From NCBI GenBank assembly GCA_964630975.1, contig CAZVVY010000004.1, positions 37,912 to 101,911 on the forward strand: a DNA stretch of 64,000 nucleotides. Reading direction: 5' to 3'. Under the pieces are notes generated by a model. The model did not search any database. It was not told the DNA's origin and worked only from the letters and a program-made list of their open reading frames with translations. This document shows positions 1 through 47,231 of the stretch, one piece after another. Numbering within the stretch: the stretch's first letter is position 1; the number at the start of each line of letters is the position of its first letter. The DNA comes from Candidatus Micrarchaeota archaeon. GTDB lineage: Archaea > Micrarchaeota > Micrarchaeia > Norongarragalinales > Norongarragalinaceae. The position numbers and the translations under genes are program-made.

Positions 1-353
1 AAAAGGAACACGGCTTGCTTGAAGTCGGAATTCAAGAGCTTGAACAGCAACTCGGAAGACAAGTGATAGGGTAGGTTTCCGAAAACCGCGTCGAAGCCGT
101 TGAAAGACGATTGGCGGGCGTCGGCGCGCACGCAGTCCACGTTACTGAATTTTTCTACGGCCGCCAAAAGCGATGGAAAAAGTTTTTCGTCGACTTCGAT
201 TGCCCGAACGCTTTTCGCGCGCTTCGCCAACTCGGTTGTCAACGCGCCTTTTCCCGCACCTATTTCTAGTACGCGCTTGCCTTTTAGCGGAATGGTTTCG
301 GCTATTGTTTTCGCAACGGTTTTCGCCGCCAAAAAGTTTTGGCTCGGCTTCAT
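1..353 (-). CDS. rsmA: 16S rRNA (adenine-N6,N6)-dimethyltransferase KsgA/Dim1, N-terminal 117 codons (rest runs off the window)
   Basis: Not in the ORF track because it is open at the window edge. Own minus-strand translation from ATG at 353: MKPSQNFLAAKTVAKTIAETIPLKGKRVLEIGAGKGALTTELA...FGNLPYHLSSELLFKLL. It has a QNFL start, SAM motif I (VLEIGAGKG) and the NLPY motif. It lies in the conserved archaeal L21e-RpoF-DUF655-KsgA gene string. Confidence 0.85.
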   Translation of the reverse strand, partial: MKPSQNFLAAKTVAKTIAETIPLKGKRVLEIGAGKGALTTELAKRAKSVRAIEVDEKLFPSLLAAVEKFSNVDCVRADARQSSFNGFDAVFGNLPYHLSSELLFKLLNSDFKQAVFL

Positions 354-2149: not shown

Positions 2150-2268
2150 GGTCAGCGGCCATAGGAGAGGGGCATACGCCCGTTCCCATCCCGAACACGG
2201 AAGCAAAGCCCTCTTACGACTTCGCGAGTACTGTGCTCCGCACGGAAAACCGGGTTGCTGCTGCCACT
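2150..2268 (+). rRNA. 5S ribosomal RNA (orphan, not linked to 16S/23S in this window)
   Basis: GGTCAGCGGCCATAGGAGAGGGGCATACGCCCGTTCCCATCCCGAACACGGAAGCAAAGCCCTCTTACGACTTCGCGAGTACTG...GCTGCTGCCAC. It contains the universal 5S CCGAAC / GAACACGGAAG / AGTACTG blocks. The ends are approximate (+/-3 nt). Confidence 0.9.
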
Positions 2269-6119: not shown

Positions 6120-6407
6120 ATGGTTAAGTACGCTATAGCAAAACAACTCGCAGGAAAGAAGATTATTACTACGGACGGTGAAGAACTCGGCCGGGTAATC
6201 GACTTGTACTTCGATGAGAGAAGCGGCCGCCTCGAAAAAGTAATCATCGAGCCCAACCCCGAATCGTCGCTCGCCGAAAAAGCGGGGCATGAAGCAGGGG
6301 GATACATAACCATCCCGTATTCGGCGGTTCTCGACGTAAAAGACGTGATGGTCGTCGACAGGCGCGCCCTCGCCGGAAACGCCCCTTCACACGTTTTCAA
6401 CGCGTAA
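6120..6407 (+). CDS. PRC-barrel domain protein
   Basis: 95 aa. LAGKKIITTDGEELGRVIDLYFDERSGRLEKVII...IPYSAVLDVKDVMVV is the typical PRC-barrel pattern. Confidence 0.7.
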   Translation: MVKYAIAKQLAGKKIITTDGEELGRVIDLYFDERSGRLEKVIIEPNPESSLAEKAGHEAGGYITIPYSAVLDVKDVMVVDRRALAGNAPSHVFNA

Positions 6408-7385
6408 GAGTGGACCTTCCCGAATTATTTTCGCGCCCAACTTTTTTCGGGCTTCCCCGATTTTTCCTTTTCTAACTAATTCCAGCGCTTGGTCCACTAG
6501 GAACGCGTTGGCCGAAAGCCAATCACCCGCCTCGCGCGCCGCCCCCTCTTTTTCCCGGAAGTCCTTTATCGCCGCCAAGCGCTGTTCACGGACGAAGTCG
6601 CGTTTAGGCTCCGCAGCCGAAGGCGAAACGAAAGAATAGTATTCCTGCAAGGCCGCACTCAACGAATCGAATTCCTTGAATTCCTTGCCCCCCATTTTCT
6701 TCAAGGGAAACGGCGAGAAGGCAACCGGCTTTCCTTCCTCAAAATAAACGACGGGCCTCGCTTCCGAGAACAAGGACAATGCGGCTTCCCGGATTGCCCC
6801 CGCCTTTTCAGCATCCAACTCCTCCTTGAATCCGACTCCGGCGCGCGCGCAGGCTTCCTCCAAGTAAAAAGGGGGCAACTCCAATGATTTGGATAGGGCG
6901 GGTACGGCCTTGCCGGTTGAAGGGAATCCGGCGGTTCGCGGGTCCTCCTTGGGCGAAGGGGGAGGCGAATAAGTTTCGCCCGGCTTCAAGGTGCGCGCCG
7001 AAAACTCTTCGAACTTGAAGGGGCGGATTATCCTTCCTCCCTCCAACAACAAAAGGTTTCCCTTGGAAAACAATTCGAACACCAGCGACTTATCGCCGAA
7101 GCCGACGCGCAACAAGCGATCGAACCCGATTTGGGTTACCGAGGAAACTCGTTTGCCCCTCAAATGTTTTCTCAACAGCATTGCGAACTGTGAAGGGCTT
7201 TTCGGGGCCGGCTTGCGCTCGCCCAAAAAAGCGTGTTCGCCGAGGCGCACTACCAAGTCCTTTTTGCCGAACCTGAAACGAAAATCCTTTTCGCCGCACT
7301 GGTATGCGTTGTCCAAGCGCGCCCCCTCCAAGGAGGCGAGCTCGCGCGACAAAAAGAATACGTCGAGGTTCCCCGTTTCCTGCAT
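6387..7385 (-). CDS. NFACT-N (FbpA/Rqc2/NEMF N-terminal) domain protein; N-terminal half of a split Rqc2 homologue
   Basis: The ORF track gives 6387..7418. I prefer ATG at 7385 (MQETGNLDVFFLSRELASLEGARLDNAYQ...). FELFSKGNLLLL and the following helical region match the NFACT-N plus first coiled-coil helix. The protein ends without an NFACT-R domain. Confidence 0.75.
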   Translation of the reverse strand: MQETGNLDVFFLSRELASLEGARLDNAYQCGEKDFRFRFGKKDLVVRLGEHAFLGERKPAPKSPSQFAMLLRKHLRGKRVSSVTQIGFDRLLRVGFGDKSLVFELFSKGNLLLLEGGRIIRPFKFEEFSARTLKPGETYSPPPSPKEDPRTAGFPSTGKAVPALSKSLELPPFYLEEACARAGVGFKEELDAEKAGAIREAALSLFSEARPVVYFEEGKPVAFSPFPLKKMGGKEFKEFDSLSAALQEYYSFVSPSAAEPKRDFVREQRLAAIKDFREKEGAAREAGDWLSANAFLVDQALELVRKGKIGEARKKLGAKIIREGPLLRVENV

Positions 7386-7447
7386 GGAAGTAGTTGGTCG
7401 AAACGCGAATAATAACATATTTATATCTCTTCCGATATAACTCGTTT

Positions 7448-16490: not shown

Positions 16491-17651
16491 ATGGTTTCCT
16501 GTAACGAGTGCAAGGGCCGGTTGCTGTGCGGGCTCAAAAAATGCCCTTTGTTGGAGCGCCTGAACGCAAAACGCGAAAACAAGCCCAGAAAAGAAGTCGT
16601 AGGCGAAAGCCCCCCAAACGTGTTCGTCGGGTGGAGAGGATACCCCTTCGTCAACGTCGGGCCCAGCGTCAGTATGGAGGGCGCGGCAACCGACGCCTCG
16701 CAATGGTACGGCTTGCCTCTCGAAGAAATAGTTTCACGTGCTTCCGGAATGGCACGGGGCTTCAAGAAGCACGGCGTGAAAAAGAGGTTGGCCCGGGAAT
16801 TGTTGGAAGCCGGCCTCAGCGCTAAAGGAGTAGACATGGCGGTAACGTTCGAGAAAACGCCGAGGCAAGACGTGCGCTTCTTCGACGTGAGCCAGCCGGG
16901 AGGCCCTTCAGGAAAAGCGAAGGCAATAGAAGTACAAGGCAACGCGCGCATACCTTGCCTGGTGGATGAAGCGGTCGACGACGGGTGGACGGCGAAGGAA
17001 GCATTAGCAGAATTAATGCACAAGGATTACGACTATTATTACTTGCAAAAAGTGTTGACTTCCGGCGCCCTCGGCCAACACTCCAAGAAGCGTCTCGTCC
17101 CAACCCGGTGGGCTATTACGGCGACGGACACCATTCTCGCCGACGAACACTTGAAGCGAGTACGCCAAAGCGAAACCATTGCCTGCTACCAGGTTTACTC
17201 GAACGAATACTTGTCAAACCGCTTCGAAATAATTTTGTTGCCCGGAAACTGGGAATACGAACAATTCGAGGCGTGGTCACCCCGCAGCTTTTGGGGCCGA
17301 GGCGAAGCAAACGTTTCCCAGGAATTCGAGCCCTACCGGGGGAGAAAGGATTACGCGAAAAGCCAGGGCGGCGGTTATTACGCGGCGCGCTTCGCGGTAG
17401 CCGAAGCAATGGCGAAAAGAAACGTGCAGGCCCGCGCCCTGGTAATACGCGAGATTTACGACGGCTACCGCGTTCCGGTAGGAGTGTGGCAAGTGCGCGA
17501 AAACGCGCGCGCCGCCTTGTCTTCAAAACCCAATGAGTTCAACTCCCTTGAAGAAGCGGTTGGCGACGCGTCCTCTCGCCTTAAAAACCGTTGGGGGGCG
17601 TATTGCTCGCGAAGCACGCTGCTCCGCCAAAAAAAGTTGTGGGACTACTAG
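16491..17651 (+). CDS. nreA: Archaeal Nre-family DNA repair protein
   Basis: 386 aa. N-terminal Cys motif CNECKGRLLCGLKKCP, then LVPTRWAITATD, GGGYYAARFAV and RVPVGVWQVRE blocks as remembered for the Nre family (DUF650/DUF651). Confidence 0.75.
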   Translation: MVSCNECKGRLLCGLKKCPLLERLNAKRENKPRKEVVGESPPNVFVGWRGYPFVNVGPSVSMEGAATDASQWYGLPLEEIVSRASGMARGFKKHGVKKRLARELLEAGLSAKGVDMAVTFEKTPRQDVRFFDVSQPGGPSGKAKAIEVQGNARIPCLVDEAVDDGWTAKEALAELMHKDYDYYYLQKVLTSGALGQHSKKRLVPTRWAITATDTILADEHLKRVRQSETIACYQVYSNEYLSNRFEIILLPGNWEYEQFEAWSPRSFWGRGEANVSQEFEPYRGRKDYAKSQGGGYYAARFAVAEAMAKRNVQARALVIREIYDGYRVPVGVWQVRENARAALSSKPNEFNSLEEAVGDASSRLKNRWGAYCSRSTLLRQKKLWDY

Positions 17652-18421
17652 ATTTTTTCGTATTCCGTTCCCGCTTCCTCCAACAACGAGAGAAGGCGGG
17701 TCTTTTCGCCGCCGCACCCTTTCTTGTCTACGAAGGCTTTTTTGACGGGTGCTCCCGCTTTTTGGGTTGCCTGCTTCAAGGTTTTCCCGCTCAAGAATCG
17801 CAGCGCATACTTCGGACAAATGTGCGAGAAAAGGACGTTCTTTTCGAGTTCGGAGAACTTCGGGCAATAATGACCTCCGCCGAATCCGAGAACGCATTCT
17901 TTTGCCTTCGATGCCTCGCACGCCTTCAAACACGCGCGGGCAACCGCTTGACACGCCGCGTCATCACCCCATTGCTCCGGGGAGCTGCCGACTTCCACGA
18001 ACAAGACGGGGCAACTCAAGGAAGTGGGGCCGTGGTGCGTCGCCTCCAAGAAAACCGGGAAGCCCGGCGCGGGCTCGGACAAAAGAAAGTCGTAAGCCGC
18101 CTTCAACGCGCCCGGCGCCGCGAACGACAACTCTTTTTCCGATCCGCCGTGTTGGCCGGGCCCCCAGTTGCCCGTGAAGTGCGCGGTCAAGCACGGTTTT
18201 TCGGAGGCGCTGGAATGCTTGGAAGCGAACACGAGCAAGTCGGTTTCGAGCCGCGTCGAAAAATCAATTGTTTCCTCCCCCGTTTCAACCAGAAATACCC
18301 CACCGCGCTTCCAACAAGGCAAGCCGGCCAACGGCTCGCGCTCATTGAAGCCGTTTTCCTTGAACCATTCGGCCATCCGCGTTCCCGCGGGGTCGCGGGC
18401 CGAGTAAGCAATCGTCGGCAT
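17648..18421 (-). CDS. dtdA: D-aminoacyl-tRNA deacylase, archaeal type (DtdA)
   Basis: The track ORF starts at 18445. ATG at 18421 gives MPTIAYSARDPAG.... LVFASKHSS, LTAHFTGNW, EATHHGP and FVEVGSS are typical DtdA blocks. Confidence 0.8.
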   Translation of the reverse strand: MPTIAYSARDPAGTRMAEWFKENGFNEREPLAGLPCWKRGGVFLVETGEETIDFSTRLETDLLVFASKHSSASEKPCLTAHFTGNWGPGQHGGSEKELSFAAPGALKAAYDFLLSEPAPGFPVFLEATHHGPTSLSCPVLFVEVGSSPEQWGDDAACQAVARACLKACEASKAKECVLGFGGGHYCPKFSELEKNVLFSHICPKYALRFLSGKTLKQATQKAGAPVKKAFVDKKGCGGEKTRLLSLLEEAGTEYEKI

Positions 18422-18456
18422 AACGCAAATTAACGCGTTCGGCATTAAACTGCATT

Positions 18457-19203
18457 ATGCGAATCGACGAAGACCGCTTCGACCGCCAAAAACGCATCAG
18501 TGGCTGGAACCAAAACGAGGTATCCAAGTCGAAGTGCCTGATAGTCGGCGCGGGCGCCCTCGGAAACGAAGTCATAAAGCTGCTCGTGCAAATGGGCGTG
18601 CGCGACTTGACGCTGGTGGACTACGACTCCATAATAGAAGCCAACCTCAACCGATGCGTTTTCTTCAACTCTTCGGACGTCGGAAAATTGAAGGCCGAAG
18701 TGCTCGCCGAAAAAGTCAAGGTAATGGATGAAAACGCGCGCGTCAACACCGCGATAAAACGCCTTGAATTCTTGGACGAAACTTTTTACGACCGGTTCGA
18801 CTACGCTTTTTCGTGCCTCGACAACCAGGCGGCGCGCCTCCACTTGAACGCGTATTGTTACGGCCGGTTGCCCTTGGTCGATGGGGGAACCGCGGGCTTC
18901 AACGGAAAAGTACAAGTCGTGCGCTCGCCGTCGGCGTGCCTGGAATGCGCGATGAGCAAGGCGGATTACAAGAGAATGTGGAAGAAGTATTCGTGCGTGG
19001 GCGACGTCCTCGACTTTTTGGACCCGAAAATGCCGGCGCTCGCCACCACCACTTCAATCGTCGCGGCCATGCAAGCCAACGAATTCGTGAAAATGGTTCA
19101 CGGCCGCGGCTGCCTCGCCGGAAAATACGTTTTCTTCGACGGATTGAAGCAGGAAACCACTGTTTACGAAATCAAAAAGAGAAACAATTGCCCGGTGCAC
19201 TAA
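18457..19203 (+). CDS. Minimal E1-like ubiquitin-activating enzyme (ThiF/MoeB/UBA adenylation domain)
   Basis: 248 aa. RFDRQKRISGW, nucleotide loop LIVGAGALGNEVIKLLVQMGVRDLTLVDYDSIIEANLNRC, CxxC pairs (CLEC, and a C-terminal NCPV region), Cys-containing crossover region KKYSCVGD. Confidence 0.85.
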   Translation: MRIDEDRFDRQKRISGWNQNEVSKSKCLIVGAGALGNEVIKLLVQMGVRDLTLVDYDSIIEANLNRCVFFNSSDVGKLKAEVLAEKVKVMDENARVNTAIKRLEFLDETFYDRFDYAFSCLDNQAARLHLNAYCYGRLPLVDGGTAGFNGKVQVVRSPSACLECAMSKADYKRMWKKYSCVGDVLDFLDPKMPALATTTSIVAAMQANEFVKMVHGRGCLAGKYVFFDGLKQETTVYEIKKRNNCPVH

Positions 19204-19922
19204 TCGAAGGCGTCGCGGATGGAGCGCACCGCGGCCTCGCTCTCCTTGTCCAAGTACAACTCGAGCTTGCGGCCGCAACGCACGCAACGCTTGTCGCCCG
19301 CCATAATCGCCTCGTAACAATCCTTGTGGTAGGCCGCCCCGCAAAAGCAGTGGCCGTACTTCGCGCCCGCCTTGTTGGAAACGGATAAAGAAAACGGGCC
19401 CTTACACAACTCGCATTTTTCCTTTGGCTCCGGTTCGTCGGCTTGCTTCGGGGGCCAAGGCGCTTTCTCGATTTTCGTTTCTTGTTTTTGCTCCTTCATT
19501 CGGCGGCTCGCGTTCTTCAATATTTCCGCCAAATCGATTGCATTCGAAGGTGGTGATTCGTCCCGCTTTTCGGCGGGGGCGGGAGACGGCTTTTCGCGTG
19601 CGGGCTCCGGCTCTTTTTCTTCGGGTTGGCGCGCGGATTCAAGGAGTTTCCCCGCTTGTTCCTTCAGCGTCTTGGCTTCGCGGCGCTTCGCCGCTTCCTC
19701 CAGCTTCTTCACCTTGTTGTAGCCTTGGACGCCCAGCGCGAGTTGTTCGCCTTCGAACACCACGTAATTCTTGGCTTTAAGCTTCTTGGCGCGCTTTTCG
19801 AACTCGCTTTCCGCGATTCGCGTCTTCGCCAACAACTCTTTCTTGGTGGCGGGCCCGTCCGACAAATAGAACAACACGTCCTTGTCGAACTTCGTCAATC
19901 GAAAACGCTTTTTCTTGGTCAC
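19200..19922 (-). CDS. RING/PHD-like (C4HC3) zinc-finger protein, candidate E3 ligase, with N-terminal wHTH-like domain and acidic disordered linker
   Basis: C-terminal CELC-x18-CFC-x4-H-x2-C-x10-CVRC (eight ligands, cross-brace spacing). The GTG start at 19922 overlaps the JAMM gene TGA (GTGA); the track start is 19955. N-terminal FDKDVLFYLSDGPATKKELLAKTRIAESEFEKRAKKLKAKNYV resembles a winged helix. Confidence 0.75.
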   Translation of the reverse strand: MTKKKRFRLTKFDKDVLFYLSDGPATKKELLAKTRIAESEFEKRAKKLKAKNYVVFEGEQLALGVQGYNKVKKLEEAAKRREAKTLKEQAGKLLESARQPEEKEPEPAREKPSPAPAEKRDESPPSNAIDLAEILKNASRRMKEQKQETKIEKAPWPPKQADEPEPKEKCELCKGPFSLSVSNKAGAKYGHCFCGAAYHKDCYEAIMAGDKRCVRCGRKLELYLDKESEAAVRSIRDAFD

Positions 19923-20359
19923 TTCTTTTTCACCAACGCGAAAGGCACGGAACAATACTTTTCTCCTTCCACCTTAAACAGTTTTTCTTCGCCGCGCAAC
20001 GGGTCGATTACCAGCGCCAAGTGGTATGTCTCGTCGAAAAAAGAGTTGTGGGCCGCCAAGTCTTGCGAAGACATGAAAGAGCCGTAACCGGGGTGGGAGT
20101 GCGCCCAAACCACGAACGGCTTACCCGAATACTTTTCCGCTATTTCCTTGAAAGCCTCGCGGGCAAAGCGCGTGTGTAAAGCGGAAGAATCGTTTTCAGC
20201 GGTTACGTATTCTTCGGCAACCAAGTACTCCTTGCCCTGAAAAGAGTAAACCCTTCCGGCGAACAATCCTATTGCTTCCACTCCGCGCTCGGCGGCCTCC
20301 TTGAAGTGCTCCCGCGCCCCCTCAAAAGCTTCCGAAAAAAAGTATGCTGCGTAAAACAT
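19919..20359 (-). CDS. JAMM/MPN+ metalloprotease (Rpn11/JAB1-like deubiquitinase)
   Basis: 146 aa. Complete JAMM motif: E (VEAIGLF) ... HSHPGYGSFMSSQD (HxHx7Sx2D). ATG at 20359, one codon inside the track start. Confidence 0.9.
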   Translation of the reverse strand: MFYAAYFFSEAFEGAREHFKEAAERGVEAIGLFAGRVYSFQGKEYLVAEEYVTAENDSSALHTRFAREAFKEIAEKYSGKPFVVWAHSHPGYGSFMSSQDLAAHNSFFDETYHLALVIDPLRGEEKLFKVEGEKYCSVPFALVKKK

Positions 20360-20362
20360 CAA

Positions 20363-21232
20363 TTAATTGAAGCCGAGCTTCTTTTTTATGGGTTCCAAAA
20401 GCTTGGAGAAAAAGCCGGGCTTCGTATTTTTTTGCTGGTGTAGCGCTATTGCGCGCTGCACTTGTTCGTCCTTGGACAACTGCCTTGGCGCGGGTTTGTT
20501 TTCAACCGGAGTAACATCTTTTTTCGCCTGGTCGGGGCCGCCCGGAAAACTTCGTTCGCGGGCCCTTGAATGAAACTGCATATAACGCGGCGTCGACTCG
20601 TCGAAATCCTTTTTTTCGTCGGAAATCAGTTCTTGTGCTTCCTTGTCCGACTCCTGCAACTCCTTCAAGTCCTCGGGGGGCTTGACTTCCGTCATTCCAT
20701 CCGATTCCTGCACGGGAGCTGTTGACTTCGGTTCGGTTTCCGCGGGGGGCTCTTGAACTGGCGCGGCCGGCTGCACTTCCCGCACCGGCTCGATTGGCGC
20801 GGGTCGTTCGACTTGTTCTTCGACCGGTTGTTCGGGTCGAGGTGCCGGTTCAACGGCTTGTTCGGTTGGTTGAGCCCGCTCCGATTCGATTGCGGGCCGA
20901 ACCTTTTCCGCCTCCTCTTCCGGCAACTGCTCTTGCGGAGGCGCTTGTTCTTCCCGGGCCTTCGGCTCAACGTGTTGCGGCGGCGCGGGTAAATCCTCGT
21001 GCTCGTTTTTGACGCCTTCAACGTTTATTCCCGGCAAATCCGAGAAGTCCTCGACCGACGGTTCTTGCGCGGGCCCGGGTTTTTCGGCAGTCCGCTGTTT
21101 TTCTTCGGCCGGTGCTTCGGAAGGCCCGCCGTCTCCCTCGCTTTCCGGGGGATTGAGAGCCTGTATGCCGTCGCCTTCGACTACGTTCGTGCCGACGGGC
21201 GGCTTCGGCTCTTTTTCATCGTCTTCAGCCAT
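20363..21232 (-). CDS. Acidic Pro/Glu/Gln-rich intrinsically disordered protein with C-terminal amphipathic helix; first gene of the JAMM-RING operon
   Basis: ATG at 21232 (MAEDDEKEPKPP...) is preferred over the track start 21304. 289 aa of low-complexity EP/PQ/PA repeats. Only the C-terminus is ordered-looking (QRAIALHQQKNTKPGFFSKLLEPIKKKLGFN). Confidence 0.6.
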   Translation of the reverse strand: MAEDDEKEPKPPVGTNVVEGDGIQALNPPESEGDGGPSEAPAEEKQRTAEKPGPAQEPSVEDFSDLPGINVEGVKNEHEDLPAPPQHVEPKAREEQAPPQEQLPEEEAEKVRPAIESERAQPTEQAVEPAPRPEQPVEEQVERPAPIEPVREVQPAAPVQEPPAETEPKSTAPVQESDGMTEVKPPEDLKELQESDKEAQELISDEKKDFDESTPRYMQFHSRARERSFPGGPDQAKKDVTPVENKPAPRQLSKDEQVQRAIALHQQKNTKPGFFSKLLEPIKKKLGFN

Positions 21233-21269
21233 GACAAGGAATATTAATCGTTCAAACGTATAAAAACGT
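21233..21269. promoter_or_regulatory. 37-bp bidirectional promoter region with two opposed TATA-like boxes
   Basis: gacaaggAATATTAAtcgttcaaacgTATAAAAAcgt. AATATTAA is centred about 27 nt before the Ubl ATG (21270). TTTTTATA (minus strand) is centred about 30 nt before the minus-strand ATG (21232). This implies leaderless mRNAs on both sides. Confidence 0.5.
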
Positions 21270-21512
21270 ATGAGTGAATTCAACATCAAGGTAACCCAGA
21301 CCACGTCAGGAAAGGAAATAGTTTTGGCGGTGGAAGAGGATTACACGGTTTCCTCGGTGCTCGAAGTTCTCGCTGAAAACCTTCACTTGAAGGACCGCTT
21401 CGTACTCGCAACCAAAGACAACAAGATTCTCGACCCCGACGTAACGCTCGGCGAAGCAGAAATAAAGGAGAACACCGAGTTGCTCCTCATCCCCGACCCC
21501 ACGGGTGGCTGA
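21270..21512 (+). CDS. Ubiquitin-like beta-grasp protein ending in Gly-Gly
   Basis: 80 aa: MSEFNIKVTQTTSGKEIVLAVEEDYTVSSVLEVLAENLHLKDRFVLATKDNKILDPDVTLGEAEIKENTELLLIPDPTGG-stop. The alternating beta/alpha pattern and ubiquitin-like length fit, and the free C-terminal GG is encoded directly before the stop. The E2 ATG follows immediately. Confidence 0.8.
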   Translation: MSEFNIKVTQTTSGKEIVLAVEEDYTVSSVLEVLAENLHLKDRFVLATKDNKILDPDVTLGEAEIKENTELLLIPDPTGG

Positions 21513-24683: not shown

Positions 24684-25066
24684 TAATTCGCGTCTCAACA
24701 CGCGAAGTATTGCACGCCCCCTAAATTTAACGATACCACTAGCGGTATACCGCCAAAAGCGCGTCCCAAGAAAAGTAAAGAAAAAAAGAAAGAAAACACG
24801 AAAACAAAAAACGACGTAAAAGCGCGGTTTAAACCTCGAATTCGGCGTTTTCGAGTTTTCGGAGGCGAGCAACCCTTTTTAAACCTTTTTATTCTTTACC
24901 GGGTAGAAAAAACACTAACCACGTAAAAACAAGGGACAAATTTGCAAAAACAGGCAGTTTTTTCACTAAAACGAAATTTTATCAAATTTTTCTTTCATAA
25001 ATCCACGACACCTCCGGTTTTCAGGAATTTTTCGAATGAAACACCGAGAATCCGAAGAAAAACGCT

Positions 25067-25308
25067 ATTTTTTCACGAAAAATAAGGAGACCGGACAGTT
25101 TTTTCGTTTAACTTGGTTTTTAGCGGGAAAAAAAACGCAAAGCAGAGTGATTTTTTCAAGAAAAATAACGACAACAGGCAGTTTTCGCGCTGAAAACGCG
25201 TTTTACACTGTTTTCATTCAAAAAAAGCGCGTTTTTGATGCTAGGCGAGCACATTTTAAGAAATTAAGGATTTTTCAACAAAAAACAAGGACGAAAGGCA
25301 GGGGTTTT
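25067..25308 (+). repeat. Three copies of a degenerate ~40-bp unit: dyad TTTTTC-NN-GAAAAA followed about 12 bp later by GG(A)CAG plus a T/G run
   Basis: 25067 attttttcacgaaaaataaggagaccggacagttttttcg; 25150 attttttcaagaaaaataacgacaacaggcagttttcgcg; 25270 atttttcaacaaaaaacaaggacgaaaggcaggggttttagcg. Further GGCAG(T)n copies at 24953 and 25329, one GGCAGGGG at 25839 and one inverted copy at 26097-26108. Confidence 0.75.
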
Positions 25309-25452
25309 AGCGGAATTCGCCGAGAATAGGCAGTTTTTGGGAAAAAACGGGTTTTTCAGAGAAAATTCGAGTGGAAACCCGCGGTTCCGGTAAAATACGG
25401 GAACAAAAAGCATTAAATTCATGTTTTTAGTAAGTTTCTAGGTGAAAATAAG

Positions 25453-25719
25453 TTGCCTGAAGAACAAATAAAAGAACACATAAAAGCGGTTAAGCCCGTG
25501 ATAAACGACCGTTTAGGGCACTTGCCGGAAGGCCAACAACGAGCCTACGCAGGATTATTGGTCAGTATAGCCGCTCGGGCCCGTTTTGAAGGTAATTTAA
25601 ACAAAGAAACAATCCAAAACCCCGAAGAAATGAGAAAACAGCTGATAAACCACTTAACTAAATTATCGAGCCATAGCGGCATCCCAAACCACAAACTAAT
25701 CAAAGCATTAGAACAATAA
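25453..25719 (+). CDS. Hypothetical 88-aa helical protein inside the A/T-rich island (non-ATG start)
   Basis: Track ORF with plausible helical composition (PEEQIKEHIKAVKPVINDRLGHLPEGQQRAYAGLLVSIAARARFEG...). TTG start. No motif recognised. Confidence 0.4.
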   Translation: MPEEQIKEHIKAVKPVINDRLGHLPEGQQRAYAGLLVSIAARARFEGNLNKETIQNPEEMRKQLINHLTKLSSHSGIPNHKLIKALEQ

Positions 25720-25720
25720 A

Positions 25721-25867
25721 ATGAAGAAACGTAAAAACAATTACACCACAATAATGACAACGTCGCGGGTAAAGGGTCGCGGGCAAACCAAGAAACGTTA
25801 CGCCAAAATAGTATTCATCAAGAAAAAGGGGCGGCGAAGGCAGGGGCAAACACCTAAAATAGCCTAA
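25721..25867 (+). CDS. Possible 48-aa highly basic micro-protein
   Basis: Own translation: MKKRKNNYTTIMTTSRVKGRGQTKKRYAKIVFIKKKGRRRQGQTPKIA. It starts 2 nt after the previous stop. The A-rich context could create this ORF by chance. Confidence 0.2.
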   Translation: MKKRKNNYTTIMTTSRVKGRGQTKKRYAKIVFIKKKGRRRQGQTPKIA

Positions 25868-26447
25868 AATAATTAAAAACGACGATAAAACAAGCAACAG
25901 TTACATCGTTTTGACGTGCTTCCACTACTAATTACCATAAAATAAAACCCCATAATGTTGTTTTCAAGGTTTCCGAGAAACATCATAAAACTCCTTGAAA
26001 AAGGCACCAAAACACGACACAAAAGCACACCATAACATTGTTTAATAGAATCGCGGAATTCCGCTCAAAAAAAATTCCGAAAAAAAACGAATAGACAAAA
26101 AAACTGCCTACTCTTTTCGATAAAAGCGAAAAAAAGCCGGCAACAAAATGATTGATTGGTAAAAAAGAACCCATAAAACCGCTTAAAGGAATTAAGAGCC
26201 AAAAAAACGAAGCAATAAAGCGAAAAAAGCCGTTAGTGCCCCCCCAAAAAAAAGAAAAAACGGGCCTTAAAACAAACGAATGCACGCCACGACCACAAAA
26301 TATGGTGGATTGAACAAAAAAACAACACAAAAAACGCGTTCATTGAAGAAAACTCGTTGGTTCGGCGTTAAACCGCCAAAAACATTTTGGAAGTAGTGGA
26401 AGCGTTCCCTCATAACGCTATTAAAGCGGTTCGCGTTTCGTTTCTAG

Positions 26448-35538: not shown

Positions 35539-35692
35539 GGGCCCATAGCTCAGTTTGGCCAGAGCACTCGGCTCTTAACCGAGGCGTCGAGGGTTCGAAC
35601 GAACCCTTTTCTTTGTAAAGAAAAGTGTTTCATCCCAAAAGAAACTCTTTTCAACGAAAAAGAGAAGGGTTGTGAAAATCCCTCTGGGCCCG
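35539..35692 (+). tRNA. tRNA-Lys (CUU) interrupted by a ~79-nt intron inside the T-loop (about position 59/60; intron about 35600-35678)
   Basis: Exon 1: GGGCCCATAGCTCAGTTTGGCCAGAGCACTCGGCTCTTAACCGAGGCGTCGAGGGTTCGAA. Exon 2: TCCCTCTGGGCCCG. Joined, they give a perfect 75-nt cloverleaf (acceptor GGGCCCA/TGGGCCC, T arm GAGGG-TTCGAAT-CCCTC, anticodon loop CTCTTAA). The junction is ambiguous by 1-2 A residues. Confidence 0.85.
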
Positions 35693-39371: not shown

Positions 39372-41417
39372 GTGACAATCCTGGTCGTTTGTGAAAAGCC
39401 GAGTGTTGCCGCGAAAACCGCGGCCGCAATATCGAAACAAACCGGTAAGAAGTCCAATGCGGCGGGCCGCCAGGTCAAACACTTTGAAGTCGGCGAATAC
39501 TTGGTCGCCCCCGCGGTCGGCCACTTGTACGGTTTGAAGCAAACGAAGAAGGGTTCGGGTTACCCTGTTTACGACATCGAGTGGGTTCCTTCCTACGAAG
39601 TCAACGATTCCTCGGCGTTCACCAAGAAATATTTGAAGCAACTCGAAAAACTCGCGAAAAAATCGGACTCCGTCGTAATCGCCTGCGACTACGACGTGGA
39701 AGGCTCGCTCATCGGCTGGAACATAGCGCGCTTCCTCGCCCCGAAAAAGCCCGTGAAGCGAATGAAGTTTTCCCTGTTGACCCCCTCCGAACTCGGCAAG
39801 GCCTTCCAAGAAAAAGGGGAAATGGATTTGAACAACGCACTGGCCGGCGAAGCGCGCCACCGCCTGGACTGGCTTTACGGCATCAACTTGTCGCGCGCGC
39901 TGATGGGAGCGGTTCGCGCGGCGGGCGCGTTCAAGGTGATGAGTGTCGGCCGCGTTCAAGGCCCGGCGCTCAGCATTCTAGCCAAGAGAGAGGAATCCGT
40001 TCGCGCGTTCAAGCCCGACCCGTTCTGGCAACTCTTTGCCCGGGACGGAGAAACCGAGTTCTCCCACGAAAAAGATAAATTCTTTTCGCAAAAAGAGGCG
40101 GACCAAGCACTTGAAAACAGTTCTTCAAAAGGAGTTGTAGCCCAAGTAAAGCGGCGTAAGGCAAGGCAAACGCCGCCGTACCCCTACGACTTGACCACGC
40201 TTCAAACAGACGCCCACCGCTGTTTCGGGTTTTCACCGGCGCGCACCCTGAAACTCGCCCAAAACCTTTACGAAGCCGCCCTAATATCTTACCCCCGAAC
40301 TTCTTCCCAAAAACTACCCGAAAAGTTGGGGCTCAAAAGCGTTTTGGAGAAGCTCGCCAAGAACCCCGCGTATTCCGTGCTCGCAGAAAAAATAATCGGG
40401 GCAGGAAAATTCAAGCCCGCCCAAGGAAAAAAAGAAGACCCCGCGCATCCCGCGATTTTCCCGACGGGTGAAAAGCCGTCCAAGCCCGGGGCGCCCCAGG
40501 CAAAACTCTACGATTTAATCGTGAAGCGCTTTTTGGCGTGCTTCGCCGAACCGCTCGTAAAGGAATCGCTTTCGGTTACGCTGCGCCTCGGCGAAGAAAA
40601 TTATTGCGCCAAGGGTTCGACGGTGCTCGAACAAGGGTGGCTCGAGTTCTTCGGCAAGTACGCGTCCATAAAAGAAAACTTTTTACCGGATTACCGCGAA
40701 GGCGAAGAAGTGAGCGTGAAGGGGCCCGAAAAAGTCGAGAAGGAAACCAAGCCGCCCAAGCGCTTTACTTCGGCGTCCATAGTGCGAGAACTCGAGAAGG
40801 AGGGTTTGGGGACCAAGGCGACTCGAAGCCAGGTCGTGGAAACCTTGTTCAACCGCGGCTACTTGGAAGGCAAGAAAAACATTCAGGTAACCGAACTAGG
40901 GTTAAGCGTTTACCGCACCCTCGACGAGTATTGCGACGAGATTACCAGCGTTAAGCTGACCAAGGAAATAGAAGACGAAGTCCGGCGCATTCAAGACGGG
41001 AGTGCCGACCCCGAAAAAGTGGTGGGTCGCGGCAAAACGGATTTGGACGGCATACTCAAGAAGTTCAAGGAACACGAAGGCAAGGTAGGCAAAAAATTGT
41101 TGTCGGCCTTGAGGGAAACGCGACGAGAACAAAGCCGCCTCGGGCCCTGCAAGTGCGGTGGCGAACTAGTGTTGCGCAAGTCGCGCTTCGGCTTGTTCGT
41201 GGGCTGCAACAAGTACCCCGAATGCAAGCAAACTTATCCCCTGCCCAAAAACGCCTTGATAAAGCCGGAAGGACGGGTCTGCGAAAAGTGCGGCACTCCC
41301 GTTGTCCGCGTCATCCGAAAAGGCAAGAGGCCGTTCACGATGTGCGTAGACCCGAATTGCCCCACGAAAGCGAATTGGGGAAAGAAAAAAGAACGCCCGA
41401 AAACAAATAATACGTAA
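39372..41417 (+). CDS. topA: Type IA DNA topoisomerase (archaeal TopA/Topo III-like) with C-terminal zinc ribbons
   Basis: 681 aa. TOPRIM VVCEKPS and ACDYDVEG, catalytic Tyr region ALISYPRTSSQKLP. C-terminal CKCGG...CNKYPEC and CEKCG...C motifs. Confidence 0.92.
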   Translation: MTILVVCEKPSVAAKTAAAISKQTGKKSNAAGRQVKHFEVGEYLVAPAVGHLYGLKQTKKGSGYPVYDIEWVPSYEVNDSSAFTKKYLKQLEKLAKKSDSVVIACDYDVEGSLIGWNIARFLAPKKPVKRMKFSLLTPSELGKAFQEKGEMDLNNALAGEARHRLDWLYGINLSRALMGAVRAAGAFKVMSVGRVQGPALSILAKREESVRAFKPDPFWQLFARDGETEFSHEKDKFFSQKEADQALENSSSKGVVAQVKRRKARQTPPYPYDLTTLQTDAHRCFGFSPARTLKLAQNLYEAALISYPRTSSQKLPEKLGLKSVLEKLAKNPAYSVLAEKIIGAGKFKPAQGKKEDPAHPAIFPTGEKPSKPGAPQAKLYDLIVKRFLACFAEPLVKESLSVTLRLGEENYCAKGSTVLEQGWLEFFGKYASIKENFLPDYREGEEVSVKGPEKVEKETKPPKRFTSASIVRELEKEGLGTKATRSQVVETLFNRGYLEGKKNIQVTELGLSVYRTLDEYCDEITSVKLTKEIEDEVRRIQDGSADPEKVVGRGKTDLDGILKKFKEHEGKVGKKLLSALRETRREQSRLGPCKCGGELVLRKSRFGLFVGCNKYPECKQTYPLPKNALIKPEGRVCEKCGTPVVRVIRKGKRPFTMCVDPNCPTKANWGKKKERPKTNNT

Positions 41418-42136
41418 TGGGCTTATTGATTGACCCCCGAAAAACGGCGCTGCAAAACGCGGCCGGCTACTACGAAAAAGCCAAGAAATTCGCCAAGAAA
41501 GCGGAGGGCGCCAGGAAATCCCTCGGAAAAAAAACCGCCAAAAAAACGCCGAAAAAGAAAAAGGCAAGGGAAAAAAGCAAGTGGTTCCACGAATTCCATT
41601 GGTTTACTTCCACCAACGGATTCTTGTGCGTAGCCGGCAAGAACGCCAAGCAAAACGAGTTCCTCGTCGCAAAACACCTGGACTCCGCCGACCTGTTTTT
41701 TCACGCGGACGTCAACGGCGCGCCCGCCACCATCCTGAAAAAAGGGTCGGGTGCCGAAGAACAAGACTTGTTGGAGGCCGCGCAATGGGCGTGCGCGTAC
41801 AGCCGGGCGTGGAAAGGCGGTTCCCTGGTTGCGGACGCTTACGCAGTTGAAAAAAAGCAGGTCAGCAAGTATTCTCACGGCGAATTCGTTGGCAAAGGAG
41901 CCTTCATGATTTACGGTGAAAGAAAGTGGTTCCGCAACCTGCCCATCCGCATAAAACTGTTGAAGGAGGAGAATCGAGTGCGTGCGGTGCCTGCCGCCCA
42001 CCCCGGCAACGGACGCGAACTACAGCCGGGACCGCTTTCAAAGCACGAAGCCGCCGCAAAAATCCACGAGGAATGGGAAGGCGTATCCCTCTCCTCGATT
42101 GAAAGCGTTTTGCCGGGAAATGCACAACTGGTTTAA
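41417..42136 (+). CDS. NFACT-R (DUF814) domain protein; C-terminal half of a split Rqc2/NEMF homologue
   Basis: 239 aa. Coiled-coil helix NAAGYYEKAKKFAKKAEGARK, K-rich linker, then WFHEFHWFTSTNGFLCVAGKNAKQNEFLV...ADLFFHADVNGAPATILK...AAQWACAYSRAW (NFACT-R core). The ATG overlaps the topA TAA (TAATG). Confidence 0.8.
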   Translation: MGLLIDPRKTALQNAAGYYEKAKKFAKKAEGARKSLGKKTAKKTPKKKKAREKSKWFHEFHWFTSTNGFLCVAGKNAKQNEFLVAKHLDSADLFFHADVNGAPATILKKGSGAEEQDLLEAAQWACAYSRAWKGGSLVADAYAVEKKQVSKYSHGEFVGKGAFMIYGERKWFRNLPIRIKLLKEENRVRAVPAAHPGNGRELQPGPLSKHEAAAKIHEEWEGVSLSSIESVLPGNAQLV

Positions 42137-42185
42137 CTTTAATTAATGTTGAACGAGACAATTATGGTGTTGGAGGGACTTTTTT

Positions 42186-44306
42186 ATGGCTAAGGAACTG
42201 ACTTTGAAGGCAGCCGAGGCAATGCAAAGCGATTACGGCAAGCGCATCGTCAGGCTCGACTCCAATGCGCGCTCGCTGTTAGGCGTTTCAACGGGCGACA
42301 TAGTCGAGATAACCGGCAAGAAGCCGGCGGCGGCAATAGTGTTGCCCGCCCACCCGCAGGACGAAGGACTCAACATAGCGCGAATCGACGGCGTTTTGAG
42401 GCAGAACACCGGTGTTGGCTTGGGCGACCGCATCGCCATCAAGAAAGCGAAGATTCGCCGCGCCAAAAAAGTGGTTTTGGCGCCCAACCAGCCGTCGCGT
42501 TACGCTCCCGGCTTCCCCGAATACGTGAAGAAGACGCTTATCGGAAAGCCATTGAACAAGGCGGACTTCCTTCGAGTCAACGTCTTCGGCACTTCCTTCC
42601 CGTTCGCGGTAGCACAAACCGTTCCCCAAGGCCTCGTAGTAGTAACCCCGGAAACCGAGCTCGTCTTGAAGGAAGAGCCGATGAAGGAGTTAGGCAAGAT
42701 TGCAACGCTTTCCTACGAAGACATCGGCGGGTTAAAGGAAGAAGTGCAAAAAGTGCGCGAAATGGTGGAGTTGCCGATGCGCCACCCCGAACTTTTCGAG
42801 CGCCTCGGAATAGAGCCGCCCAAAGGAGTCCTAATTTACGGGCCGCCCGGCACGGGCAAGACCTTGCTGGCGCGCGCGGTTGCAAACGAGAGCGACGCCC
42901 ACTTCATCACGCTGTCGGGCCCCGAAATAGTTTCCAAATACGTGGGCGAAGCCGAAGAAAAACTGCGCAACATCTTCAAGGAGGCGGAAGAAAACTCGCC
43001 GACCATAATATTCATCGACGAATTGGATGCAATCGCGCCCAAGCGCGAGGAAGTAGTCGGGGAAGTTGAGAAGCGCATCGTCTCCCAACTCCTCGTGTTA
43101 ATGGATGGCTTGAAGAGTCGCGGTCAAGTAGTAGTCATCGCGGCCACCAACCGCCCCAACGCAATAGACCCCGCGCTCCGCAGGCCCGGCAGGTTCGACC
43201 GAGAAATAGAAATCGGCGTGCCCGACAAGACGGGCCGAAAGGAAATACTCGAGATTCACACGCGCGGAATGCCGATGGATAACGTAAGCGTTGACTCGCT
43301 TGCCGCGCGCACTCACGGCTTCGTGGGCGCCGACCTCCAATCGCTTTCCAAGGAAGCGGCAATGCGCGCTTTGCGCAGGTTACTGCCAAAAATCAATTTG
43401 GAGGACGACGAAATCCCGAAGCACATATTGGAAGACCTCAAAGTGCGCAAAGAGGATTTCGAAGAGGCGCTGAAGGGAATCCAGCCGTCGGCCCTCCGTG
43501 AAGTGTTCGTGGAAGTGCCCAACGTGAAGTGGAGCGAGGTCGGCGGGCTTGAAGATGCCAAGCGCGAGATAACCGAGGCCGTGGAATTACCCCTCAAAAA
43601 CCCGGAGTCCTTTTCGCGGCTCGGCATCAGGCCCGTGCGCGGCATTTTGTTGTACGGCCCGCCCGGCACGGGTAAAACGTTGCTCGCAAAGGCGGCGGCA
43701 ACAGAAAGCGAAGCCAACTTCATCGCGGTGCGCGGCCCCGAACTGTTAAACAAGTGGGTTGGCGAAAGCGAGAAGAGCGTGCGCGAAGTTTTCCGCAAGG
43801 CGCGAATGGCTTCGCCCAGCATAATTTTCTTCGACGAAATAGATGCGCTCGCGCCGGCGCGCGGAGCGAATGCGTCAAGCCACGTGACCGAGCGCGTAGT
43901 CAACGCGTTGCTTGCAGAAATGGATGGACTCAGCAACTTGAAGGACGTAGTCGTAATCGCGGCCACGAATCGCGTGGACATACTCGACCCCGCGCTGTTG
44001 AGGCCCGGCCGATTCGACAAACTCGTCGAAATACCGGTGCCCGACGAAAAAGCGCGCCTCGAAATATTGAAGGTGCACACCGGCAAGATGCCTTTGGGTA
44101 AGGGAGTCGACTTGAAGGAGTTGGTGAAGAAGACGGAGGGTTACAGCGGCGCCGACGTTTCCGCGTTGTGCCGTGAGGCGGGGCTCAACGCTTTGCGTGA
44201 AAGCGCGTCCGCAAAAACGGTTTCTGCCAAGCACTTCAAGGAAGCGTTCGACTCCATTAAGCTCCTCATCAAGCAGCAAAAGAAAGTGGAGAGGGGATAC
44301 GGTTGA
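42186..44306 (+). CDS. cdc48: CDC48/VCP/p97 AAA+ ATPase (double-psi barrel N-domain plus D1 and D2)
   Basis: 706 aa. N-domain [21 protein letters not shown]. Two Walker A ([11 protein letters not shown] twice), two Walker B ([16 protein letters not shown]), two SRH regions. Confidence 0.95.
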
Positions 44307-47196: not shown

Positions 47197-47231
47197 AATA
47201 TGGTTATAAACCGCCTCAGAGTAATAAACGC

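What the first reader, a model, noticed from the sequence alone, without database searches (positions are those of the whole stretch)
6387..7385. Rqc2/NEMF (NFACT) homologue split into two genes 34 kb apart
Seen: the 6387..7385 gene encodes NFACT-N plus a helical stretch and stops. The 41417..42136 gene starts with the complementary coiled-coil helix (NAAGYYEKAKKFAKK), a K-rich linker and the NFACT-R/DUF814 core (WFHEFHWFTSTNGFLCVAGKNAKQNEFLV ... FHADVNGAPATILK).

Established: archaeal and bacterial Rqc2/RqcH homologues are single polypeptides in which the two coiled-coil helices form a hairpin that connects NFACT-N to NFACT-R.

Inference: the split falls inside the coiled-coil hairpin, so the halves could reassemble non-covalently, as reported for other split genes in reduced archaeal genomes.
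Basis: partly seen in the sequence, partly recalled or inferred. Interest (0 to 1): 0.6.

Follow-up and report, generated by a model that had tools for sequence, protein, structure and literature searches.

The report
Ribosome-rescue protein RqcH split in two
The archaeal ribosome-rescue protein RqcH (Rqc2/NEMF family) is encoded here as two intact, selected genes 34 kb apart, cut at the tip of its coiled-coil hairpin, and the same cut is found in many small-genome (DPANN) archaea.

Summary
Gene 6387..7385 (-) encodes positions 2-336 of NCBIfam's 645-position archaeal RqcH profile: NFACT-N, HhH and the first coiled-coil helix. Gene 41417..42136 (+) encodes positions 381-638: the second helix, NFACT-R and the C-terminal tail. 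There is no overlap and no other NFACT gene in the window.

The break lies in the beta-turn of the small middle (M) domain at the far tip of the hairpin, not inside a helix. This is neither decay nor an assembly error:
- dN/dS is about 0.125 for both halves.
- Independent assemblies agree.
- A relative carries both halves about 42 kb apart on one 533-kb contig, with the same neighbours.

The same breakpoint recurs in 56 of 80 archaeal species loci: 41 Micrarchaeota, plus Iainarchaeota, Altiarchaeota and Woesearchaeota. It also recurs in hundreds of protein clusters. Thermococci, Methanoperedens, Bathyarchaeia and Nanohaloarchaea keep one gene.

The most likely mechanism is a non-covalent heterodimer that rebuilds the hairpin and M domain on the 50S subunit. 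This is inferred, not shown.

I found no paper describing the split. I rate it a new variant of a known kind. Whether it arose once or several times is unresolved.

The parts
6387..7385 (-). N-half gene of split RqcH (332 aa plus stop): NFACT-N, HhH, coiled-coil helix 1 and two strands of the M domain
   Evidence: ORF. Pfam NFACT_N 2.8e-34. RqcH_arch profile 2-336/645. dN/dS 0.126.
6627..7385 (-). NFACT-N plus HhH globular part (residues 1-253). It contains the conserved D89-R90 and E104/N110 motif positions.
   Evidence: Pfam match to residues 13-251. R90, E104 and N110 are invariant in alignments A3 and A8. AF2 pLDDT is about 95 for this part.
6471..6602 (-). Coiled-coil helix 1 (CC1, residues 262-305)
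   Evidence: AF2 helices 262-292 and 294-305 in the fused model and 264-305 in the N-half alone. Aligns with CC1 of full-length archaeal RqcH.
6390..6461 (-). N-terminal part of the M (middle) domain: short helix (residues 309-316) and beta-hairpin (319-323, 326-330). The gene stops two residues after strand 2.
   Evidence: AF2 secondary structure. N-halves of many lineages end at this same point.
7417..7426 (-). TATA-like box (ATATAAATAT) about 36 nt upstream of the ATG at 7385. It is a candidate promoter of the N-half's own, in the 63-bp gap to the divergent PadR gene.
   Evidence: Read directly from the sequence. This is inference only; there are no expression data.
41417..42136 (+). C-half gene of split RqcH (239 aa plus stop): third M-domain strand, coiled-coil helix 2, K-rich linker, NFACT-R and C-terminal tail
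   Evidence: ORF. Pfam NFACT-R_1 2e-28. RqcH_arch profile 381-638/645. dN/dS 0.125.
41420..41434 (+). Residues 2-6 (GLLID): the third strand of the M domain, supplied by the C-half
   Evidence: DSSP strand at fused residues 335-337. Aligns with 'VRLYL'/'VSLDV' of full-length proteins. About 80 representative clusters start 'M-x-I-x-L-D'.
41447..41536 (+). Coiled-coil helix 2 (CC2, residues 11-40), starting with the conserved NA..YYEKAKK motif
   Evidence: AF2 helix 343-372 of the fused model, pLDDT about 90. Aligns to B. subtilis RqcH 363-383.
41537..41590 (+). Lysine-rich flexible linker between CC2 and NFACT-R
   Evidence: pLDDT below 50 at fused residues 372-383. The equivalent linker was unresolved in B. 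subtilis RqcH.
41594..41917 (+). NFACT-R domain (residues 60-167) with D92-x-F94-x-H96, which aligns with the DWH motif of B. subtilis RqcH
   Evidence: Pfam PF05670. Alignment to 7aqc_R residues 433-531.
41918..42133 (+). C-terminal tail (residues 168-239), matching the archaeal RqcH profile to position 638 of 645
   Evidence: Structured in the AF2 model with pLDDT about 90.
39372..41417 (+). Topoisomerase IA gene. Its TAA stop overlaps the C-half ATG by one base (TAATG), which suggests co-transcription and translational coupling.
   Evidence: Pfam Toprim, Topoisom_bac and Zn ribbon. Junction sequence. The same topA/C-half order is seen in relatives.
42186..44306 (+). CDC48/VCP-type AAA ATPase gene, 49 nt downstream of the C-half
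   Evidence: Pfam CDC48_N, CDC48_2 and two AAA domains. Adjacency recurs in about 14 species-level loci, including Iainarchaeota.

Best explanation
The two genes together encode one functional archaeal RqcH, the Rqc2/NEMF-family factor that binds 50S subunits carrying peptidyl-tRNA and drives C-terminal tailing. It is made as two polypeptides.

The gene was cut in the beta-turn of the small M domain at the distal tip of the coiled-coil hairpin.
- The N-half carries NFACT-N and HhH (tRNA side), helix CC1 and two M-domain strands.
- The C-half carries the third M-domain strand, helix CC2, the flexible linker, NFACT-R (A-site-finger side) and the C-terminal tail.

I infer the following.
- After separate translation the halves pair through the antiparallel CC1/CC2 coiled coil and complete the M-domain sheet. 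This recreates the full-length architecture.
- The heterodimer then works on the 50S subunit like single-chain RqcH.
- The N-half has its own promoter.
- The C-half is co-transcribed and translationally coupled with topA, and is followed by CDC48.

What is shown: complementary domain content, the exact break position, purifying selection on both halves, conservation of the split and its synteny, and wide taxonomic spread. What is inferred: physical association, ribosome binding and tailing activity.
For: - Complementary, non-overlapping profile coverage: 2-336 and 381-638 of 645. The summed score is 424 bits against a 400-bit cut-off.
- In full-length proteins the cut maps to '...kaVTIEL-[EGKK]-VRLYLnKSl.ENA..YYEKAKK'.
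- An AF2 model of the direct fusion has mean pLDDT 85. It shows CC1 (262-305), a helix (309-316), strands 319-323 and 326-330, the junction at 332/333, a strand at 335-337, then CC2 (343-372).
- That model matches full-length NEMF, Rqc2 and RqcH chains over 560-739 columns, with E from 1e-24 to 1e-31.
- Functional residues are kept: D89-R90, E104 and N110 in the N-half, and D92/H96 of the DWH-type motif in NFACT-R (roles).
- dN/dS is 0.126 and 0.125 against relatives at 86-88% identity.
- Both halves sit on one 533,585-bp contig of a relative (39% and 53% identity), about 42 kb apart, on opposite strands, with the same neighbours as here.
- All close homologues of either half are half-length.
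- 56 of 80 species-representative loci have a C-only ORF with no NFACT-N within 10 kb.
- 85 of the 150 best representative clusters are short and start at the same strand.
- Woesearchaeota N-only proteins end at the same strand.
- In B. subtilis the only direct 50S contacts are NFACT-R and the distal CC-M, and both are needed. The N-half alone would therefore lack a complete ribosome anchor.
- Independent assemblies confirm the locus.
Against: - There is no direct evidence that the halves bind each other. I could only model a covalent fusion whose alignment contained full-length homologues, so the hairpin prediction is close to homology modelling.
- Linker and permuted constructs could not be run.
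- The N-half alone folds with nearly the same confidence in CC1 and the M hairpin: 82-88 against 88-91. The model therefore does not demand a partner.
- The genes lie in different transcription units 34 kb apart, so stoichiometry is not enforced.
- Solo NFACT-R proteins (CCDC25/Jlp2) show that this domain can work without NFACT-N.
- No RNA or protein evidence of expression was obtained for the C-half.
- RqcH activity has not been tested in these organisms.
Confidence: 0.8

Rival explanations
1. Subfunctionalisation. After the fission the two products act independently. For example, the C-half would be a stand-alone NFACT-R RNA/ribosome-binding factor working with CDC48 or topA, and the N-half a separate tRNA-binding factor. 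No heterodimer would form.
For: - The genes are in separate transcription units; the C-half is coupled to topA and lies next to CDC48.
- That neighbourhood recurs in Micrarchaeota and Iainarchaeota.
- Solo NFACT-R proteins with a coiled coil exist in eukaryotes.
- The N-half alone is predicted to fold confidently.
- Norongarragalina-type N-halves end earlier and seem to lack the M hairpin.
Against: - Both halves keep a long amphipathic helix whose only known role is to pair with the other.
- The break is at the same residue-level position everywhere.
- Both halves have the same low dN/dS.
- Both are present wherever a long contig allows a check (window).
- The C-half's best family match is archaeal RqcH, not CCDC25.
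- The N-half alone would lack the two ribosome contacts that B. subtilis RqcH needs.
Confidence: 0.13
2. Artefact or decay: a mis-assembly, a frameshift or a pseudogenised RqcH.
For: The window is a metagenome-derived sequence. One Bathyarchaeota locus (L070) does show two adjacent overlapping ORFs that look like a frameshift.
Against: - A 12.5-kb contig from one run is identical over 39372-44306.
- A second run's contig spans the topA/C-half junction.
- A 30-kb contig from another study is about 95% identical without indels.
- Both ORFs are intact with proper starts and stops.
- dN/dS is about 0.125.
- The same split occurs in dozens of species and hundreds of clusters.
Confidence: 0.02
3. 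The halves are joined into one polypeptide after synthesis, by a split intein or by RNA-level joining.
For: Split tRNA genes are known in reduced archaea of the Nanoarchaeum equitans type (cited).
Against: - The two proteins are fully accounted for by RqcH profile positions, and the sum of their lengths is below that of a full-length protein.
- There is no extra 100-aa or 35-aa intein fragment and no C/S/T nucleophile at the junction: it reads ...RVENV* / MGLLID.
- Pfam finds no intein or Hint domain.
- No complementary flanking sequences were noted at the two loci.
Confidence: 0.02

Closest known systems
Single-chain RqcH / Rqc2 / NEMF (NFACT family; NCBIfam NF041120 archaeal RqcH; B. subtilis RqcH PDB 7AQC/7AS8; yeast Rqc2 8AAF; human NEMF 9GY4)
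   Same: - The domain order is the same: NFACT-N, HhH, CC1, M, CC2, linker, NFACT-R, C-terminal tail.
- The conserved DR, E..N and D-x-aromatic-x-H positions are kept.
- The fused model matches these chains over 560-739 columns.
   Different: - It is encoded by two genes 34 kb apart on opposite strands, cut in the M-domain beta-turn.
- Each half scores below the family cut-off on its own.
- Both coiled-coil arms and the M domain are somewhat shorter than in most full-length archaeal proteins.
Split protein-coding genes of reduced (DPANN) archaea, for example reverse gyrase, alanyl-tRNA synthetase and topoisomerase I in Nanoarchaeum equitans, Dph1/2 in several DPANN, and pheT in Altiarchaeales
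   Same: - An informational or translation-related protein is encoded in two distant ORFs.
- The break falls at a domain boundary or loop.
- Both pieces are conserved and are presumed to assemble after translation.
- It is used or usable as a rare-event phylogenetic character.
   Different: - This protein was not on any list of split genes that I could find.
- The spread is much wider than a single genus or order: Micrarchaeota, Iainarchaeota, Altiarchaeota and Woesearchaeota.
- The assembly module would be a coiled-coil hairpin rather than a globular interface.
Solo NFACT-R proteins (eukaryotic CCDC25 / yeast Jlp2)
   Same: They are also an NFACT-R domain attached to a coiled coil and lacking NFACT-N. 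There is a weak fold match over 126 columns, E about 5e-5.
   Different: - In CCDC25 the coiled coil is C-terminal. Here it is N-terminal and is recognisably CC2 of RqcH.
- The C-half matches archaeal RqcH positions 381-638 end to end.
- The same genome has the matching N-half.

Membership tests
RqcH / Rqc2 / NEMF (NFACT family) | NFACT-N domain followed by HhH motifs | tested here: met
   Pfam NFACT_N E=2.8e-34, residues 13-251. PDB sequence hits to Rqc2, NEMF and RqcH N-terminal parts. AF2 pLDDT about 95.
RqcH / Rqc2 / NEMF (NFACT family) | Conserved tRNA-side motifs (D-R, and E-h-h...N) in NFACT-N | tested here: met
   D89-R90, E104 and N110 are present. R90, E104 and N110 are invariant in A3 and A8. 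The functional role is taken from the literature, not tested here.
RqcH / Rqc2 / NEMF (NFACT family) | Two long helices forming a coiled-coil hairpin with a small middle (M) domain at the tip | tested here: inconclusive
   Both helices and all three M-domain strands are present and align to full-length proteins. They lie on two polypeptides, and pairing was modelled only for a covalent fusion.
RqcH / Rqc2 / NEMF (NFACT family) | NFACT-R domain with the D-W-H-type motif, C-terminal to the coiled coil | tested here: met
   Pfam NFACT-R_1 E=2e-28. D92, F94 and H96 align with D482, W484 and H486 of B. subtilis RqcH. W is replaced by F.
RqcH / Rqc2 / NEMF (NFACT family) | All domains on a single polypeptide (the architecture described as resistant to change) | tested here: not met
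   There are two ORFs 34 kb apart. Each is below the 400-bit equivalog cut-off, at 189 and 235 bits.
RqcH / Rqc2 / NEMF (NFACT family) | Binds 50S-peptidyl-tRNA and drives C-terminal tailing | not testable with these tools
   This needs biochemistry or cryo-EM.
Archaeal NFACT neighbourhood (Mut7-C PIN RNase plus AMMECR1) | NFACT gene adjacent to Mut7-C and AMMECR1 genes | tested here: not met
   Neighbours are PadR/ABC, PRC barrel and Taw1 for the N-half, and KaiC-like, topA and CDC48 for the C-half. No such families were found among the about 50 window ORFs scanned. The neighbourhood itself is described.
Functional split genes of reduced archaea | Two ORFs with complementary, non-overlapping coverage of the ancestral protein | tested here: met
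Functional split genes of reduced archaea | Both pieces under purifying selection and conserved as pieces in relatives | tested here: met
   dN/dS about 0.125 for both halves. Half-length homologues only. Conserved synteny and co-occurrence on one contig.
Functional split genes of reduced archaea | Pieces assemble into an active protein | not testable with these tools
Solo NFACT-R proteins (CCDC25/Jlp2) | NFACT-R with a C-terminal coiled coil and no cognate NFACT-N partner | tested here: not met
   The coiled coil is N-terminal and homologous to RqcH CC2. The cognate N-half is in the same window.

The most novel reading that the evidence does not exclude
The cut in the M-domain turn happened once, in a common ancestor of Micrarchaeota, Iainarchaeota, Altiarchaeota and Woesearchaeota/Nanoarchaeota. 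If so, split RqcH is a rare-genomic-change marker that unites these DPANN lineages.

It would also set apart the Nanohaloarchaea, which keep a single gene. They would then lie outside that clade, have re-fused the gene, or have re-acquired it.

A weaker corollary follows. The conserved C-half/CDC48 adjacency would reflect a functional link between archaeal RQC and the CDC48 unfoldase, echoing the eukaryotic RQC complex.
Probability: 0.2. Interest if true: 0.7.

Novelty: new variant of a known kind. Interest (0 to 1): 0.55.

Why it matters
[quoted passage not shown] Its multi-domain architecture has been described as unusually resistant to change.

A natural, widely conserved two-chain version would matter in four ways:
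1. It shows the protein tolerates a cut at the exact point that contacts the uL11 stalk base. That gives a ready-made system to test how the coiled-coil/M module assembles and docks.
2. It explains why annotation pipelines fail to call RqcH in many DPANN genomes, since each half is below the family cut-off. This can make these organisms look as if they lack RQC.
3. It adds a translation-quality-control factor to the short list of split informational genes in reduced archaea.
4. It offers a discrete character for the disputed phylogeny of DPANN, including the position of Nanohaloarchaea.

If the halves turned out to act separately, this would be a case of a universal factor being taken apart into independent modules.

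Tried and rejected
- **Split intein or trans-splicing.** Rejected. There is no extra sequence, nucleophile or Hint domain at the junction.
- **Assembly artefact or pseudogene.** Rejected.
- **Second NFACT copy in the window.** None found.
- **Heterodimer-like AF2 runs.**
  - Unpaired-row alignments for C+linker+N and N+linker+C were misaligned by MAFFT, which placed CC1 of the N-halves on CC2.
  - The N+linker+C alignment with full-length rows misaligned the M domain against the linker.
  - None of these was submitted.
- **AF2 of the N-half alone.** It gave almost the same secondary structure and only slightly lower confidence in CC1 and M, so it does not discriminate.
- **Coiled-coil arm-length covariation.** The motif-based proxy is noisy and I had too few true pairs. 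It only shows that both arms here are at the short end of the range.
- **Single versus multiple origin.** Two neighbour-joining trees of the C-half region gave 12 parsimony changes. They placed the Woesearchaeota, Altiarchaeota and 'Methanosarcinales'-labelled split forms among full-length clades. The trees are too weak to decide.
- **Broad 40-sequence alignment for the genome scan.** It had no usable conserved stretch, so a 12-sequence one was used.
- **Expression evidence.** The only RNA-type run held fragments on topA and CDC48 and nothing on the C-half.
- **Literature.** Seven searches and several full-text or supplement look-ups found no description of a split NFACT/RqcH.
Full report
**1. 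Observation**

The window has an intact ORF at 6387..7418 (-) and one at 41417..42136 (+).

The start at 7385, which gives 332 aa, is the likely one for the first ORF.
- Homologues begin 'M-Q/R-E-x-G-N-L-D'.
- A TATA-like ATATAAATAT (7417-7426) overlaps the upstream ATG and lies about 36 nt before 7385.

Family matches:

| Half | Pfam match | NCBIfam RqcH_arch (NF041120) |
|---|---|---|
| N-half | NFACT_N, E=2.8e-34 | 189 bits, profile 2-336 of 645 |
| C-half | NFACT-R_1, E=2e-28 | 235 bits, profile 381-638 of 645 |

Coverage is complementary and does not overlap. Each half is below the 400-bit cut-off, and the sum is 424 bits. HMMs built from N-halves and from C-halves each hit exactly one ORF in the window.

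**2. Where the cut is**

Full-length archaeal RqcH reads '...VKGIDAKEKAVTIEL-EGKK-VRLYLNKSLGENAELYYEKAKKF...' (Thermococcus). The N-half ends '...AKIIREGPLLRVENV*'. The C-half starts 'MGLLIDPRKTALQNAAGYYEKAKKF'.

In a 10-sequence alignment, and again in a 14-sequence one, the junction falls on the 2-4-residue turn between two strands.

I ran an AF2 model of the direct fusion (mean pLDDT 85.1, pTM 0.46). Its elements in order are:
- CC1 helix, 262-305
- a short helix, 309-316
- strands 319-323 and 326-330
- the junction at 332/333
- a strand at 335-337
- CC2 helix, 343-372
- a low-confidence K-rich linker
- NFACT-R

The break is therefore in the beta-turn of the small M domain at the far tip of the hairpin. 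It is not within a helix.

The fused model matches the following chains:
- NEMF, 9gy4_Z, E=1.7e-31
- Rqc2, 8aaf_a
- B. subtilis RqcH, 8s1u_H and 7aqc_R, E about 1e-24, over 560-739 columns

High rmsd values reflect different domain orientations in these elongated proteins.

**3. Real, and under selection**

Against relatives at 86-88% protein identity, dN/dS is 0.125 for the C-half and 0.126 for the N-half.

The locus is reproduced in independent assemblies:
- A 12.5-kb contig from one run of a microbial-mat metagenome is identical over 39372-44306.
- Another run's contig spans the topA/C-half junction.
- A 30-kb contig from a different study is about 95% identical with no indels.

The residues needed for function in B. 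subtilis align with conserved residues here (roles from Crowe-McAuliffe et al., bioRxiv 10.1101/2020.09.03.281279):
- D89-R90, E104 and N110 in the N-half
- D92, F94 and H96 in NFACT-R

**4. Not a one-off**

Every close homologue of the C-half is 238-277 aa, across 48 clusters labelled Micrarchaeota, Norongarragalinales or Anstonellaceae. Every close homologue of the N-half is 326-377 aa.

A relative carries both halves on one 533,585-bp contig, with 53% (C) and 39% (N) identity to the window's halves.
- They lie about 42 kb apart on opposite strands.
- The neighbours are the same as here: KaiC-like, topA, C-half and CDC48 on one side; PadR/ABC, N-half, PRC barrel and the wyosine radical-SAM enzyme on the other.

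An exhaustive profile-free search found 2,500 relatives of the C-half. Among the best 150 representatives, 85 are short. Nearly all of these start 'M-x-I-x-L-D-x-x-K-s-x-x-eNA..Y[YF]e.aKK'.

In 80 species-representative genome loci:

| State | Loci | Lineage labels |
|---|---|---|
| C-only ORF, no NFACT-N within 10 kb | 56 | 41 Micrarchaeota, 2 Iainarchaeota, 2 Altiarchaeota, 1 Woesearchaeota, 6 unnamed archaea, 3 'Methanosarcinales', 1 'Chloroflexi' (probably mis-binned) |
| One full-length ORF | 23 | Thermococci, Methanoperedens, Methanosarcinales, Methanophagales, Bathyarchaeia, Caldivirga, two Nanohaloarchaea |
| Frameshift-like pair at another position | 1 | Bathyarchaeota |

N-only proteins of about 370 aa from Woesearchaeota and 'Nanoarchaeota' form 646 clusters. 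They end one to three residues after the same strand. Cluster names add Diapherotrites and Altiarchaeales.

**5. Mechanism**

In B. subtilis the only direct contacts of RqcH with the 50S subunit are two. NFACT-R contacts the A-site finger, and the distal CC-M contacts the uL11/H44 stalk base. Both are required.

In the split form, NFACT-R and CC2 are on one chain. The tRNA-binding NFACT-N/HhH and CC1 are on the other. The stalk-base-contacting M domain is built from both. The simplest reading is an obligate heterodimer, held by the antiparallel coiled coil and by completion of the M-domain sheet.

This is inference. I could only model a fusion. The N-half alone is predicted with almost the same local confidence, which neither supports nor refutes pairing. 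Both arms are at the short end of the range seen in full-length proteins. That is consistent with matched arms but is weak evidence.

On expression, the topA stop (TAA) overlaps the C-half ATG by one base (TAATG), and CDC48 follows after 49 nt. The C-half is therefore probably co-transcribed with them. The N-half sits in a divergent arrangement with PadR and has its own TATA-like box.

The topA/C-half/CDC48 cluster recurs in about a quarter of split loci, including Iainarchaeota. It is not found next to full-length genes. I treat the CDC48 link as synteny, not as evidence of function.

**6. Rivals**

- Independent functions of the halves cannot be excluded (about 0.13).
- Artefact or decay is refuted in practice.
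- A split intein or RNA joining is very unlikely: there is no extra sequence, nucleophile or Hint domain.

**7. Comparison and novelty**

By content this is archaeal RqcH, but it fails the family's single-polypeptide architecture. It is not a CCDC25-type solo NFACT-R. It behaves like the known split informational genes of reduced archaea.

I found no paper that lists or describes it, including a 2024 archaea-wide fusion/fission survey and its supplements. Public annotation already names the pieces 'NFACT family protein' and 'NFACT RNA binding domain-containing protein'. The data are therefore public, but the interpretation appears not to be.

Whether the fission happened once or repeatedly is open. 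Two rough neighbour-joining trees group most Micrarchaeota forms together. They place the Woesearchaeota, Altiarchaeota and 'Methanosarcinales'-labelled split forms among full-length clades. One of the 'Methanosarcinales'-labelled contigs encodes a glyoxylate shunt, so the split may extend beyond typical DPANN. The turn at the hairpin tip may simply be the one permissive site.

**8. Verdict**

- Novelty: new variant of a known kind.
- Interest: 0.55.
- Confidence in a real, functional two-gene RqcH that reassembles: 0.8.

Noticed in passing
window 39372-44306; loci L001, L009, L011, L013, L037, L038, L061, L071, L079: The order topoisomerase IA, C-half, CDC48 AAA ATPase is conserved in about a quarter of split loci, across Micrarchaeota and Iainarchaeota. 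Here the topA stop overlaps the C-half start (TAATG). Cdc48 is part of the eukaryotic RQC complex, so the adjacency may or may not be meaningful.
   Followed up: partly
window 17648-20362: A D-aminoacyl-tRNA deacylase (17648-18445, -), a ThiF/E1-like protein (18457-19203, +) and a JAB-domain protein (19919-20362, -) lie together. This could be an archaeal ubiquitin-like (SAMP-type) modification set.
   Followed up: no
window 24873-26447: This is an AT-rich stretch (GC 0.45 against about 0.54) with few ORFs. It has four direct copies, spaced 110-152 nt, and inverted copies of a motif around 'ACAGGCAGTTTTT'. It could be a replication origin or a regulatory region.
   Followed up: partly
window 35545-35609 and 36683-36753: Rfam calls a weak tRNA (33 bits) at 35545-35609 that ARAGORN does not report. 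ARAGORN calls tRNA-Cys at 36683-36753, which Rfam does not list at gathering score. These may be atypical or interrupted tRNA genes.
   Followed up: no
window 2151-2266: A 5S rRNA gene stands alone, with no 16S or 23S rRNA gene in the 64-kb window.
   Followed up: no
window 57956-60199: A 747-aa ORF has no Pfam match at E<=0.001. Several other ORFs of 170-310 aa also have none (1246-1758, 19200-19955, 20363-21304, 45917-47942).
   Followed up: no
L043, L048, L086 (MAGs labelled uncultured Methanosarcinales): These carry a split-type C-half. Contig L043 also encodes malate synthase, isocitrate lyase, MTHFR and an SMC-head-only ORF of 208 aa (L043:1388-2014). The taxonomic label is doubtful, or the split extends beyond DPANN.
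   Followed up: partly
L070:8801-10819 (Bathyarchaeota MAG): RqcH appears as two adjacent, overlapping ORFs broken at a different position (about profile position 264 of the N-half). This looks like a frameshift or sequencing error rather than the conserved split.
   Followed up: no
P0055-P0057 (Norongarragalina-type N-halves, 326-327 aa): These N-halves end about 20 residues earlier ('...RKRELEF') and seem to lack the M-domain hairpin. The tip of the hairpin is further reduced in that lineage.
   Followed up: partly
L089 (contig end), protein P0050: The 14-residue tail 'IGRASCRERVCHRV' at the contig end looks like translated sequencing adapter, not part of the N-half. I removed it before the dN/dS and length comparisons.
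   Followed up: yes
L072, L081 (Nanohaloarchaea MAGs): RqcH is a single ORF of about 631 aa, unlike in the other DPANN-labelled lineages sampled.
   Followed up: partly
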